NCBI GenBank assembly: GCA_951406725.2 | Contig: OX597839.1 | Span: 4,154,001 to 4,218,000, forward strand | Direction of reading: 5' to 3' | Length of the DNA stretch: 64,000 nucleotides | DNA from: Octopus vulgaris | Taxonomy: Eukaryota | Shown: positions 5,390-62,242 of the stretch, one piece after another | Layout of the letters: each line of letters opens with the position of its first letter | How positions within the stretch are numbered: position 1 is the stretch's first letter | Made by a program: the position numbers and the translations under genes | Notes under the pieces: generated by a model | Told to the model about the DNA's origin: nothing | The model's database searches: none | Seen by the model: the letters and a program-made list of their open reading frames with translations, nothing else

Positions 5390-8300
5390 CTGATAGGAGT
5401 AGATGTGACGAGGAAGAGAGAAATACAGATAGTTTTAGAGTTGCAAAAACAGATATTTAAAGGTGAGTGAGAGAGAGAGAGAGGGAGAGAGGGAGGGAGA
5501 GAGAAATATAGATATTTTTAGAGTCACAAAACAGATATTTAAAGGTGAGTGAGTGAGTGAGGAGTGAGGGAGGAGTGAGTGAGTGAGTGAGTGAGTGAGG
5601 GAGTGAGGAGTGAGTGAGTGAGGAGTGAGTGAGTGAGTGAGAGTGAGTGAGTGAGTGAGTGAGTGAGTGAGTGAGTGAGGAGTGAGTGAGGAGTGAGTGA
5701 GTGAGGAGTGAGTGAGTGAGTGAGGAGTGAGTGAGTGAGGAGTGAGTGAGTGAGGAGTGAGTGAGTGAGGAGTGAGTGAGTGAGTGAGTGAGTGAGGAGT
5801 GAGTGAGAGTGAGTGAGAGTGAGTGAGGAGTGAGGGAGGAGTGAGTGAGAGAGAGAGAGAGTGAGTGAGTGAGTGAGAGAGAGAGAGAGAGAGAGAGAGA
5901 GAGAGAGAAACTGTGATTGTGTGTGCATGCTTGAATGTAAGGGATACTGTATGTCTTTTAGGTGTCTGGGAGAGAGAGAGAGAGAGAGAGAAAAAGAGAA
6001 AAGAGAGATATTTAGTTTATTTACAGCAGGTATGAGTGACAATATGTGTGAGAGAAGAGAAAGATTCAGTTATTAAGAGGGAGAGAGAAAGACCGTGAGA
6101 AAAAGTTTGTGTCTAAGCGATAAATACTCTGTAGTGAGTACGTATGATAGCATATGACTGTATGCACGTGCGTGAGAGAGAGAGAGAGTCACATGGATGC
6201 AAACACACCAAGACCAGTTGTCAAGCAGTGGTGGTAGGGGACAAACACAGACACTACACACACACACACATATATATATATACACAATGGGCTTCTTTCA
6301 GTTTCTGTTTACCTAAACCACTTATAAGGCTTTGGTCAACCTGAGGCTATAGTAGAAAGCACTTGCCCAAGGTACCACGCTGTGGGACTGAACACCTAGA
6401 ACCATGTGGTTGGGGGAAAAAAAAAAGCTTCTTTCTACACTTCTACACAGCCATACTTGTGCCTAATATATATAAAAAGCACCCGCTACACTCATGGAGT
6501 GGTTGGTGTAAGGAAGGGCATCCAGCCGTAGAAACATTGCCATATCAAACTGGGCCTGGTGCAGCCTTCTGGCTTCCCAGACCCCAGTTGAACTGTCCAA
6601 CCCATGCTAGCATGGAAAGCGAACACTAAACGATGATGATATATATATATATATATATAAAGGGAAAGTTTACGAAAATAAACAAAAGACGAAGGCAGGT
6701 GGAGTACAAACAAACAAATGTATTAGTATAGTGCTCAGGAATAGAAAAAGTCTTTTATGTTTCGAGCCTACGCTCTTCGACAGAAAGATACACAGAAAAA
6801 AAACAAGGAGAGAAAAAAATGCATGTAGGAGCTAACGATCTATGATGGCTTCCGTTGCCTGAGCAACCAACTGGCTCCGTGCCAGTGGCACGTAAAAGAC
6901 ACCATGCGAGCATGATCGTTACCAACATCGCCTTACTGGCACCTGTGCTGGTGGCATGTGTAATAAGATTCGAGCGAGGTCATTGCCAGTACCGCCTGAC
7001 TGGCCCCGTGCCGGTGGCACATAAAAAGCACCCACTACACTCACGGGTCAAGATTGGAGCCTGGTGTGGCTGTCTGGTTTGCCAGCCCTCAGTCAAACTC
7101 GTCCAACCCATGCTAGCATGGAAAACGGACGTTAAACGATAATGATGATGATGATGATATATATATCATCATCATCATCATTATCGTTTAACGTCCGTTT
7201 TCCATGCTAGCATGGGTTGGACGGTTCGACCGGGGTCTTGGAATCCAAGAGGCTGCACCAGGCTCCAGGCTGATCTGGCAGAGTTTCTACAGCTGGATGC
7301 CCTTCCTAATGGCAACCACTCCGTGAGTGTAGTGGGTGCTTTTTACGTGCCTCTGGCATCTGTGCCAGAGGAGGGCTGGCAACAGCCACGATTGGTTGTT
7401 GCTTTTTATGTGCCACCGGCACAGAAACCAGTCAAGGAGGCACTGGCATTGGCCACGTACGGATGGTGCTTTTTACGTACCACCGGCACATGTGCCAGGG
7501 TAGGCTGGCAACACCCACGAACGGTTGGTGCTTTTTACGTGCCACCGGCACGGAAGCCAGTCAAGGATATAATGGGCTTCTTTCATTTTCTACCAACCAA
7601 ATTCACTCAGGAAGCTTTGATCAGCCTGGGGCTAACGTAGAAGGTATTTGACCAAAGTGCCATGCAGTGGGACTGAACTAGGACCTATGTGGTTGGGAAG
7701 CAAACGTAAAACCACACAGCCATGCCTGTACTAACTTAATTGGACAGACATACAGGTGAGCAGAGTGACAAACAACTGGGGATGAAAGGATGGGGAGGGG
7801 ATGAAAAATGTGAGACAGACTGATAGACACACAGACAAAAAATAGAGGTGGAACAAGGTGGAAGAAGAAAGAGAGGAATGATGTTGGAAAGTGGTGGGAA
7901 CAGACCAGCTGGACTTACCTAATTCTGGGTATTCTAAAACTTCAACCTTCTTGATACAGTTCTCAGCCAAGATGGCAGCTGGTCCTCCAATGGAACCAAG
8001 GTAGAAGCCACCATGTTGTTTACAGGATCTGGTTACCTGACAGGTGAGAAGAAAAAGGAAGAAGTTAAAATGATAGTGGGGAGCGATGTGAAAGGGTGAC
8101 AGAGAGCGAGAGTATTGTTATAAATAAAGAGGGAGGGGTTGATGTGGGGGTGGTAATGAGATAGCTTGAGACAGCTACCTGAGAAAGAGATGACAGTGAT
8201 GGAGAGGAATGATATAAGAGATAGAGAGAGGGAGCATCATTACATATGAAGAGAGGGGAGTTAATGTGGGTGGAGCAGTGACATGGTCATCTGACAGGAA

Positions 8301-11300
8301 GAGGAGAGAGAGATTGAGAGAGTATCATTACATATGAAGAGAGGGGAGTTAATGTGGGTGGAGCAGTGACATGGTCATCTGACAGGAGGAGGAGAGAGAG
8401 ATTGAGAGAGTATCATTACATATGAAGAGAGGGAAGTTAATGTGGGTGGAGCAGTGACATGGTCATCTGACAGGAGGAGGAGAGAGAGATTGAGAGAGTA
8501 TCATTACATATGAAGAGAGGGAAGTTAATGTGGGAGGAGCAGTGACATGGTCATCTGACAGGAGGAGGAGAGAGAGATTGAGAGAGTATCATTACATATG
8601 AAGAGAGGGAAGTTAATGTGGGTGGAGCAGTGACATGGTCATCTGACAGGAGGAGGAGAGAGAGATTGAGAGAGTATCATTACATATGAAGAGAGGGAAG
8701 TTAATGTGGGAGGAGCAGTGACATGGTCATCTGACAGGAGGAGGAGAGAGAGATTGAGATAATATCATTACATATGAAGAGAGGGAAGTTAATGTGGGTG
8801 GAGCAGTGACATGGTCATCTGACAGGAGGAGGAGAGAGAGATTGAGAGAGTATCATTACATATGAAGAGAGGGAAGTTAATGTGGGAGGAGCAGTGACAT
8901 GGTCATCTGACAGGAGGAGGAGAGAGAGATTGAGAGAATATCATTACATATGAAGAGAGGGAAGTTAATGTGGGTGGAGCAGTGACATGGTCATCTGACA
9001 AGAGGAGGAGAGAGAGATAGAGAGAGTATCATTACATATGAAGAGAGGGAAGTTAATGTGGGTGGAGCAGTGACATGGTCATCTGACAGGAGGAGGAGAG
9101 AGAGATTGAGAGAGTATCATTACATATGAAGAGAGGGAAGTTAATGTGGGAGGAGCAGTGACATGGTCATCTGACAGGAGGAGGAGAGAGAGATAGAGAG
9201 AATATCATTACATATGAAGAGAGGGGAGCTAATGTGGGTGGAGCAGTGACATAGTCATCTGACAGGAGGAGGAGAGAGAGATAGAGAGAATATCATTACA
9301 TATGAAGAGAGGGAAGTTAATGTGGGTGGAGCAGTGATATGGTCATCTGACAGGAGGATGAGAGAGAGATAGAGAGAGTATCATTACATATGAAGAGAGG
9401 GAAGTTAATGTGGGTGGAGCAGTGACATGGTCATCTGACAGGAGGAGGAGAGAGAGATAGAGAGAGTATCATTATACATAAAGAGAGAGAGGGATGGAGG
9501 TTGATAGGGGCAGGGCAATAAGATGTTCACCTGAGAGGAGGGAAGGAGGAAGAGAGTGATAGGGATGAATGATATAAAAGAGTGATTGAGTGAGAGAGAG
9601 AGAGAGAGAGAGAGAATCACCGCATATAAGAATATAATACAACATATACAAAAGTATATATATTCACCAAATTATACACACACATGCATACAGACAAATA
9701 CACATGCACATATACACACATGGACTGACCTGTCTGCTTCTGTTTCCTTTAGCTAACATCACCATACTTCCGCCATGTGACTGTAACATATCGACATAGG
9801 AATCCATACGTCCAGCAGTTGTAGGGCCGAAAGATCCACTGGCGTAACCCTGATGAGACAATGTACAATACATGTGTACAGAATTTACAACAAATACAAA
9901 ACAAACAAGTTCATCATCATCATCATCGTCATCATCATTGCTGCCACCACTACAAGCACCAGCACTGTCAATATCCATTTTTCCTCTAAGGTGGCGAGCT
10001 GGCAGAAACATTAGCATGCCGGGCGAAATGCATAGCCATATTTCGCCTGCCGTTACGTTCTGAGTTCAAATTCTGCCGAGGTCGACTTTGCCTTTCATCC
10101 TTTCGGGGTCGATTAAATAAATACCTATTTCTTTACTACCCACAAGGGGCTAAACACAGAGGGGACAAACAAGGACAGACAAACGGATTAAGTCGATTAC
10201 ATCGACCACAGTGCGTAACTGGTACTTAATTTATCAACCCCGAAAGGATGAAAGGCAAAGTCGATCTTGTCGGAATTTGAACTCAGAACGTAACGGCAGA
10301 CGAAATACCACTAAGCATTTTGCCCGGCATGCTAACGTTTCTGCCAGCTTGCCGCCTTCGATTAAATAAATACCAGTTATGCACTGGGGTTGATATAATA
10401 CACTTAATCCGCTTGTCTGTCCTTGTTTGTCCTCTCTGTGTTTAGCCCCTTGTGGGTAGTAAAGAAATAGAAATAGGTATTTCGTTTGTCTTTACGTTCT
10501 GAGTTCAAATTCTGCCAAGGTTGACTTTGCCTTTCATCCTTTTGCGGTTGATAACTTAAGTACCAGATGCATACTAGGGTCGATCTAATCAACTGACCCC
10601 CACTACCCCAAAATTTTCGGCTTTGTGCCTAGAGTAGAAAAGAACATCCCTTTTCCCATGCTTACTTGGGATGGATTTTATTGAGGTATACAATTTCCTA
10701 TGAGGCGGATGTTCTTCCTATAATCAAATTTTACCTGTTTCTAAGCAAGGTAATATTTTCTTGTAGTCAAGCATGTTTTTGCAGAATACTGGAAATGAAT
10801 GACACTATAATAAACATTTATATCTATCACATAATGTCAAGACAAGGAAGCATATACATACACATACTTATATGCAGACATATATGTATATGTACTTATA
10901 TATAAGTACATACACATATACGTTTCAACCGTGTTTTACTGACGTGAATTTGCTACTCAGGTATCGATTAACCGAATTATCCATACTAGGATAATTCATT
11001 CACCTACTTAAATATATATATATGCATATTTATATTTTTTTATATTTATATATTTTTCTCTCCTTGTTTTTTCTGTGTCCCTTTCTGTAGAAGAGCGTAG
11101 GCTCGAAACGTAAAATACTTTTTCTATTCCTGAGCGTTATACTAATACATCTGTTTGTTTTGTACACCACCTGTGTTCGTCTTTTGATTTTTTCGTAAAC
11201 TCTCCCTATATATATATATATGCATACATACATACATACATACATACATATATATATATATATCATCATCATCATCATCGTTTAACGTCTGTTCTCCATG

Positions 11301-61880: not shown

Positions 61881-62045
61881 ACACGTGGTTTATAAGTGAC
61901 AGTTATGTTACTAGTATCGAAAGATCGCCCTTTGAAGTATTGTAGTCGAACATATATATATATATATATATATATATATATATATATATATATATATATA
62001 TATATATATATATATATATATATATATATACATACATATATATAT

Positions 62046-62242
62046 AGGGAGAGTTTACGAAAAAAACAAAAGACGAAGGCTGGTGGTGTAGAAAATAAAG
62101 AGATGTATTAGTATAATGCTCAGGAATAGAAGTCTTTTATGTTTCGAGCTTACGCTCTTCTACAGAAAGGGACACAGAAAAAAAACAAGGAGAGAAAAAA
62201 AGGAAAGAAAAAATGTGTGTAGTGGCTAACGATCTATCATGG
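62046..62242 (-). mobile_element. Third copy of the hammerhead-variant repeat
   Basis: CUUU CUGUAGA a GAGC guaa GCUC GAAA CAUA AAAG at ~62169-62134. Confidence 0.6.

What the first reader, a model, noticed from the sequence alone, without database searches (positions are those of the whole stretch)
6661..62242. Dispersed family with a recurrent non-canonical minimal hammerhead core (CUGUNGA-A)
Seen: three separate ~190-bp copies (folds at 6788-6751, 11081-11115, ~62169-62134) read YUUU-CUGUNGA-A-GAGC-GUAR-GCUC-GAAA-C-R-UA-AAA. They have U at normally invariant A6, an extra A before stem II, and a loopless palindromic stem III (ACGU, intact at 11 kb). The copy at 57403-57439 has the same architecture with canonical CUGAUGA, which supports the hammerhead reading. 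Established: minimal hammerheads with palindromic stem III occur in Penelope-like element pseudo-LTRs and cleave as dimers. Inference: A6U in every copy, with position 7 and the loop free to vary, is a family consensus rather than decay, so this may be an undescribed core variant.
Basis: partly seen in the sequence, partly recalled or inferred. Interest (0 to 1): 0.75.

Follow-up and report, generated by a model that had tools for sequence, protein, structure and literature searches.

The report
Retroelement hammerhead with fixed A6U change
A short, very abundant repeat in this animal genome, likely a Penelope-type jumping-gene passenger, carries a hammerhead self-cutting-RNA motif in which one normally fixed core letter is changed across the family; it is likely a weakened or dead ribozyme that kept spreading, though residual cutting is untested.

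Summary
The three motifs are real (shuffles give 0.05 per 64 kb). They lie in a dispersed ~190-bp element with a fixed 5' start and a (TA)n end. The architecture is the published minimal hammerhead of Penelope-like elements, including the extra A; homologues elsewhere keep A6, and one lies behind an RT ORF. I found A6U in no paper searched, but Lünse 2017 was unreadable. Corrections: the 57-kb copy is a related but different family; the loop is 93-97% GUAG, so its variation is private decay; ACGU is intact in 1 of 3 copies. Fixation shows ancestry, not function. A6 changes cut activity in published tests, U6 favours a predicted misfold, copies are monomers, and cleavage is dispensable for one Penelope-like element in vitro. 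Best reading: a crippled ribozyme in a non-autonomous element (0.55). A slow working variant remains possible (0.28). The scan noted this family before in another genome (e1-9559914).

The parts
6662..6849 (-). Full-length copy of the U6 element, ending in (TA)n; sense-oriented in the last intron of a class I fumarate hydratase gene
   Evidence: exons at about 8.0 kb and 5.35 kb on the minus strand by motif scan, Pfam Fumerase on two other exons
6751..6788 (-). Minimal type I hammerhead fold, core CUGUCGA, stem I 5 bp, stem II 4 bp, ACAU; predicted cut after 6756
11051..11206 (+). 5'-truncated copy of the U6 element between TA-rich tracts; antisense in a fumarate hydratase intron
11082..11115 (+). 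Minimal hammerhead fold, core CUGUAGA, stem I 3 bp, palindromic ACGU; predicted cut after 11112
62047..62243 (-). Full-length copy of the U6 element, ending in a long (TA)n
62134..62169 (-). Minimal hammerhead fold, core CUGUAGA, stem I 4 bp, private GUAA loop, ACAU; core position 6 = 62162; predicted cut after 62138
57109..57578 (-). Related A6 family element as a partial tandem (unit A to 57404, unit B plus 3' tail), between CA/TG microsatellites
57403..57439 (-). Canonical-core minimal hammerhead (CUGAUGA), stem I 5 bp with G2.4-C1.4 where the U6 family has C2.4-G1.4; ACAU
57220..57246 (-). Second, decayed hammerhead of the tandem (core CCGACAA, stem II intact)

Best explanation
This is a high-copy ~190-bp non-coding repeat, likely a non-autonomous derivative of a Neptune-type Penelope-like element, whose minimal hammerhead lost A6 family-wide and is likely crippled, so the element would spread from uncut RNA. 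Shown: dispersed monomers with a shared 5' start and (TA)n 3' end; U6 in 3 of 3 window copies; canonical A6 at background level in two runs; an otherwise complete minimal-hammerhead layout. Inferred: (1) the ancestor was an A6 pLTR hammerhead like the 57-kb family; (2) A6U arose once in a master copy; (3) transcripts were copied in trans by a Penelope-like RT/GIY-YIG protein into TA-rich targets; (4) U6 removes core contacts and lets U4-G5-U6 pair with A15.1-C15.2-R16.2, which would cut activity strongly; (5) this was tolerated because cleavage is not needed for insertion.
For: A6 share 2,263 of 3,236,319 (X2) and 610 of 480,025 (X7) summed contig depth, inside the 0.01-0.66% range of seven other low-level changes listed for 62175-62191. 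Depth falls about 400-fold (X2) and 600-fold (X7) upstream of the 5' start and the loose ends there are heterogeneous (agreement 0.42-0.43), so no shared ORF is seen upstream. Depth 5' and 3' of the predicted cut is similar (X2 1.99 vs 1.90 million; X7 0.20 vs 0.24 million) and all 3 copies span the cut. Predicted G5:C15.2 pairing is 0.35, 0.18 and 0.80 in the three copies, 0.03, 0.00 and 0.14 with A put at position 6 in silico, and above 0.2 in 0 of 76 canonical homologues. A6C lowers rates: under 0.1 per min (PMC3088659) and 3.55e-6 per min at 0.3 mM Mg2+ in an otherwise fast ribozyme (PMC7151607). Canonical minimal hammerheads are already slow as dimers (PMC4209133). Hammerhead-dead mutants of the Anolis element still insert in vitro (PMC11167929). 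ACAU, which gives no stable dimer helix III (+1.3 vs -3.7 kcal/mol), is in 2 of 3 copies. Penelope link by architecture: L031 has RT (Pfam RVT_1) and an ORF with CxxCxxC and GIY-YIG-like motifs read by eye upstream of the same motif.
Against: Every other core position, stem II, G10.1-C11.1, U16.1-A17 and stem I are intact in the family. Contigs with different 5' or 3' flanks share the motif (loose ends: 92 and 121 contigs in X2, 61 and 77 in X7) while only 31 and 17 contigs show A6. This suggests sister lineages also lack A6 and kept the motif while flanks drifted, which a dead motif need not do. A6C is a natural variant with measurable activity and a Mn2+ preference. The Anolis hammerhead needs its protein to cleave, so protein could rescue folding. 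Canonical copies also span their cut sites, so equal depth on both sides does not separate dead from live. No RT was linked to the U6 family itself.
Confidence: 0.55

Rival explanations
1. A slow but working natural core variant: U6 dimers cleave after GUA with help from the element's protein or a different metal such as Mn2+, and damped activity suits the element.
For: Only one core letter is changed and it is fixed. Sister flanks appear to share the non-A6 motif (inference). The family is in runs of four species labels A-D. G at 16.2 (ACGU) is 42-64% of depth despite reference bias towards A. A6C precedent and protein-assisted cleavage precedent.
Against: Predicted misfold. Window copies are dispersed monomers. 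No significant extra conservation of the motif in the window (p=0.44). 106 of 120 unbiased metagenome matches to this layout keep A6 and the 3 U6 matches lie in 51-72% GC contigs without the element's flanks. All 56 motifs of the published alignment have A6, though their search required it.
Confidence: 0.28
2. The fold is kept for a non-catalytic job, such as a binding site for the element's protein or part of the pLTR promoter, so stems and most core letters stay constrained while A6 is free.
For: Stem II is predicted stable in all copies (0.88-1.00). In the Anolis element the RNA region needed for insertion overlaps the hammerhead's 3' part and catalytic mutants still insert. The motif is covered by more contig depth than the flanks (a hint only).
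Against: No binding or promoter data here. Single-stranded core letters other than A6 are also kept, which catalysis explains more simply.
Confidence: 0.15
3. Chance resemblance; not hammerhead-derived.
For: No Rfam hammerhead match; folding z-scores are unremarkable (-0.9 to +0.3).
Against: 0.05 descriptor hits per shuffled window; a homologous family with canonical core at 57 kb and a C-G to G-C swap in stem I; near-identical layout in the Acropora Neptune motif.
Confidence: 0.02

Closest known systems
[quoted passage not shown]
   Same: Short stem I, extra nucleotide between 9 and 10.1, G10.1-C11.1, loopless palindromic 15.2-16.2, U-rich 5' and AU-rich 3' flanks, mostly dispersed single copies. 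The Acropora Neptune motif has nearly the same stem II (GGGC/GCUC) and GAAA-CGU.
   Different: Core is CUGUNGA; all 56 motifs of their alignment have A6 and none is from a cephalopod. No RT/endonuclease ORF was linked to this family. Their only listed core variants involve positions 3 and 8.
Natural A6C hammerhead of phage Bcep176 (Perreault 2011, PMC3088659, section 8 and passages read; Naghdi 2020, PMC7151607, parts 1-2 of 4 read)
   Same: A natural change at the same core position, with reduced activity.
   Different: C rather than U; a single phage ribozyme with tested activity, not a high-copy minimal dimer-type motif.
Small stem-III hammerhead variants of Penelope-like elements (Lünse et al. 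2017, PMC5785218; not held; seen only as a reference and a review passage in PMC6765202)
   Same: Reduced stem III and dimer cleavage.
   Different: Could not check whether their collection holds U6 cores.
Non-LTR retrozymes (bioRxiv 10.64898/2026.07.22.740005; part 1 of 5 read)
   Same: Short non-coding hammerhead repeats proposed to derive from Penelope pLTRs.
   Different: Defined as tandem repeats with complete hammerheads; the U6 copies here are dispersed monomers. The 57-kb partial tandem is closer.

Membership tests
Hammerhead ribozyme | C3U4G5A6N7G8A9 | tested here: not met
   U6 in 3 of 3 copies; A6 0.07% and 0.13% of depth. Met by the 57-kb motif.
Hammerhead ribozyme | G12A13A14, A15.1-U16.1 and H17 | tested here: met
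   GAAA-C-R-U-A in 3 of 3 copies
Hammerhead ribozyme | Stems I and II around the core | tested here: met
   Stem II 4 bp, probability 0.88-1.00; stem I 3-5 bp possible but probability only 0.00-0.37 in monomer folds
Hammerhead ribozyme | Self-cleavage after N17 | not testable with these tools
   No raw RNA reads were listed; contigs cannot show RNA ends
PLE min-HHR | Extra nucleotide between 9 and 10.1, and G10.1-C11.1 | tested here: met
   A in all copies; feature listed in PMC4209133
PLE min-HHR | Palindromic 15.2-16.2 allowing a dimer helix III | tested here: inconclusive
   ACGU in 1 of 3 copies; G16.2 42% and 64% of depth; CpG decay, reference bias or an ACAU subfamily cannot be separated
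Penelope-like element (autonomous) | RT plus GIY-YIG ORF flanked by pLTRs | tested here: not met
   No such ORF beside any copy; depth collapses upstream of the element. Present beside the canonical homologue in L031.
Non-autonomous PLE derivative | Short pLTR-like unit with hammerhead, high copy, microsatellite or AT-rich targets | tested here: met
   188-197 bp; 11,814 and 5,083 contigs laid in X2 and X7; (TA)n ends
Non-autonomous PLE derivative | Sequence shared with an identified autonomous partner | not testable with these tools
   No genome held; no family copy found in metagenome, viral or prokaryote collections
Non-LTR retrozyme | Tandem units each with a complete type I hammerhead | tested here: not met
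   3 of 3 U6 copies are single; only single-contig joints in X2 hint at tandems
Naiad PLE | Match to published Naiad sequences | tested here: inconclusive
   Four family words gave 0 hits in the supplement text of PMC8557442; long cells are cut there

The most novel reading that the evidence does not exclude
A6U is a natural, working hammerhead core: a lineage of Penelope-derived elements has kept a CUGUNGA ribozyme across several subfamilies and species, cleaving as a dimer only when the element's protein or a particular metal refolds it. It would be a very high-copy natural exception at an 'invariant' core position and would mean CUGANGA-based searches miss whole families.
Probability: 0.28. 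Interest if true: 0.65.

Novelty: new variant of a known kind. Interest (0 to 1): 0.4.

Why it matters
The job of the hammerhead in Penelope-like elements is an open question. A family that amplified to very high copy number with A6U is informative either way. If it is dead, it is natural evidence that cleavage is dispensable for mobilisation, matching the in vitro Anolis result. If it cleaves, it widens the hammerhead core consensus and shows that standard descriptors miss such families. One cheap in vitro assay with the 57-kb A6 relative as control would decide it.

Tried and rejected
No own genome is held, so no genome-wide copy collection or covariation test was possible. No RNA holder was listed; X5 is only guessed to be RNA, so its 128 laid contigs are not used as evidence of expression. 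Raw-read runs X22 and X23 do not hold the family: 149 and 69 reads, nearly all low-complexity partial matches. Five X22 reads from 2 start places showed A6 with 10 other differences and were set aside. The second lay, on 61 bases, returned no table of variants, so positions 7 and 17 were not counted; 33 rows are hidden, so C or G at position 6 at a few percent is not strictly excluded. Pattern scans found no family copy: viral contigs 0, 11 and 8 matches, the latter two without hammerhead context; prokaryote genomes 0 and 0; metagenomes 120 loci from 50 of 64 parts, none of this family. Pfam did not recognise the endonuclease-like ORFs P0001 and P0002 at E<=1; that label rests on recalled motifs read by eye. 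I did not build a covariance model from the metagenome hits because the search pattern fixed their stem II, making the test circular. I looked by eye for a second CUGANGA in the element that would make it a permuted hammerhead and found none. A possible CUAC-GUAG pseudoknot with the loop was considered and left as probably chance. Literature searches (supplement searches) found no hammerhead A6U; the one 'A6U' hit is a twister ribozyme. Figure-based supplements may not be searchable, and the O. vulgaris repeat paper's supplement (PMC13282606) was listed but not opened.
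Full report
Observation. The window is animal DNA, rich in microsatellites, with a class I fumarate hydratase gene on the minus strand (Pfam Fumerase). Earlier AI notes call the genome octopus-like; I did not test that. A minimal-hammerhead descriptor with at most one core mismatch returns exactly these four, against 1 hit in 20 dinucleotide-shuffled windows. 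Rfam has no hammerhead match.

The element. The three U6 motifs lie in one repeat family, 87.5-90.8% identical pairwise. Two copies begin at the same GCCAT (6849 and 62243, minus strand). The 11-kb copy lacks the first 30-45 bases. All three end at CCC followed by a TA-rich tract. No long ORF of a Penelope-like element lies beside any copy. The 57-kb motif belongs to a different, homologous family: similarity is confined to the motif region and 3' tail. It forms a partial tandem whose second hammerhead has decayed. Between the two families stem I shows one double change, C2.4-G1.4 to G2.4-C1.4.

Is U6 a family consensus? Laying contigs of public runs on 62045-62420 at 80% likeness placed 11,814 (X2) and 5,083 (X7) records. 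At core position 6 the canonical A makes up 0.070% and 0.127% of summed depth, inside the 0.01-0.66% range of seven other low-level changes listed nearby. So A6 copies look like random back-changes, not a subfamily. C or G at this position is not listed, but 33 rows were hidden, so a few percent is not strictly excluded. The loop is GUAG in 93% and 97%, and G16.2 (ACGU) is 42% and 64%. Depth drops several hundredfold just upstream of the 5' start, with heterogeneous flanks, so this is a discrete short unit. The family is also in X1, X4 and X5 (12,258, 6,118 and 128 records), together four species labels. Summed depth is not a copy number; dividing flank depth by single-contig depth gives tens of thousands as a rough guess only.

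What it is. A metagenome scan left open at positions 6 and 7 gave 120 loci (50 of 64 parts scanned). 106 of 120 have A6; the 3 with U6 lie in 51-72% GC contigs and lack the element's flanks. Most low-GC hits read CUGACGA-A-GAGC-UAAC-GCUC-GAAA-CGUC, nearly the Acropora Neptune motif in the supplement of PMC4209133. L031 has an RT (Pfam RVT_1, E 5e-8) followed by an ORF with CxxCxxC and GIY-YIG-like motifs (read by eye; Pfam silent) upstream of the same layout; L007 is similar. PMC4209133 lists the extra nucleotide after A9 and the palindromic 15.2-16.2 as standard features. PMC8557442 links the Neptune linker to microsatellite targeting as a hypothesis. The layout is therefore the known Penelope-type minimal hammerhead, and only A6U is unusual. 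That this family is a non-autonomous Neptune derivative is inferred from layout and target; no partner was found.

Does it work? Against: A6 changes reduce activity in published tests, and these minimal motifs are slow even when canonical. U6 lets U4-G5-U6 pair with A15.1-C15.2-R16.2; predicted G5:C15.2 pairing is 0.35, 0.18 and 0.80, falls to 0.03, 0.00 and 0.14 with A6 in silico, and exceeds 0.2 in 0 of 76 canonical homologues. The copies are monomers and 2 of 3 have ACAU, which gives no stable dimer helix. In the Anolis element, hammerhead-dead RNA still inserts in vitro. In the window the motif is not significantly better conserved than its flanks (4 of 36 vs 20 of 113, p=0.44), a weak test on three copies.

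For: all other core letters are intact. Contigs with different flanks share the motif. In (X2; X7) contigs leave the reference 8 bases upstream of position 6, while only 31 and 17 contigs in all show A6, so at least some sister lineages seem to lack A6 too. This assumes the tool counts differences that near the end of an aligned part. One sister 3' flank consensus is about three quarters alike by eye. Retention of the motif after A6U would point to constraint. A6C is a natural variant with activity and a Mn2+ preference, and the Anolis hammerhead needs protein to cleave.

Mechanism and odds. Most likely (0.55) A6U arose once in a master copy of a pLTR-derived non-autonomous element, crippled the ribozyme, and was carried to high copy number because uncut RNA is a sufficient template for the partner RT/endonuclease. 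A slow, assisted, working variant gets 0.28; a non-catalytic role for the fold 0.15; chance 0.02.

Novelty. New variant of a known kind. Nine literature searches and three supplement searches (listed under Tried and rejected) found no hammerhead A6U. The largest survey of such motifs (Lünse 2017) could not be read and may hold it. Interest 0.4: a real, undescribed-looking sequence variant with a cheap decisive test, but more likely a relic than new chemistry.

Noticed in passing
window 57109-57578 (-): In the partial tandem of the A6 family, unit A joins the start of unit B 2-4 bases 3' of the predicted cut (after 57408). This could be a trace of cleavage and re-joining or of template switching; a single case.
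   Followed up: partly
window 13310-13470 (+): Another short repeat between TA tracts holds CUGAUGA...GAAA at 13369-13390 but did not pass either hammerhead descriptor; possibly a decayed or differently wired motif.
   Followed up: partly
window about 5300-23200 (-): Intron-containing class I (iron-sulfur type, recalled) fumarate hydratase gene; Pfam Fumerase on two exons. The 6.7-kb copy is sense in its last intron, the 11-kb copy antisense in another.
   Followed up: partly
window about 41400-51300 (+): Exons of an LSG1/GNL1-like GTPase by recalled motifs; not confirmed by a family search (one search gave no hit for the one exon tried).
   Followed up: no
window 59890-60222 (+) and 61391-61849 (-): Fragments of other retroelements: a zf-RVT piece (Pfam E 3.9e-6) and a LINE-like C-terminus recognised by eye only.
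   Followed up: no
L031 and the MDSP/MDSQ loci; L002-L120 low-GC loci: Many canonical minimal hammerheads with stem II GAGC/GCUC in animal-like contigs of metagenomes; L031 holds a broken RT plus endonuclease-like ORF upstream.
   Followed up: partly
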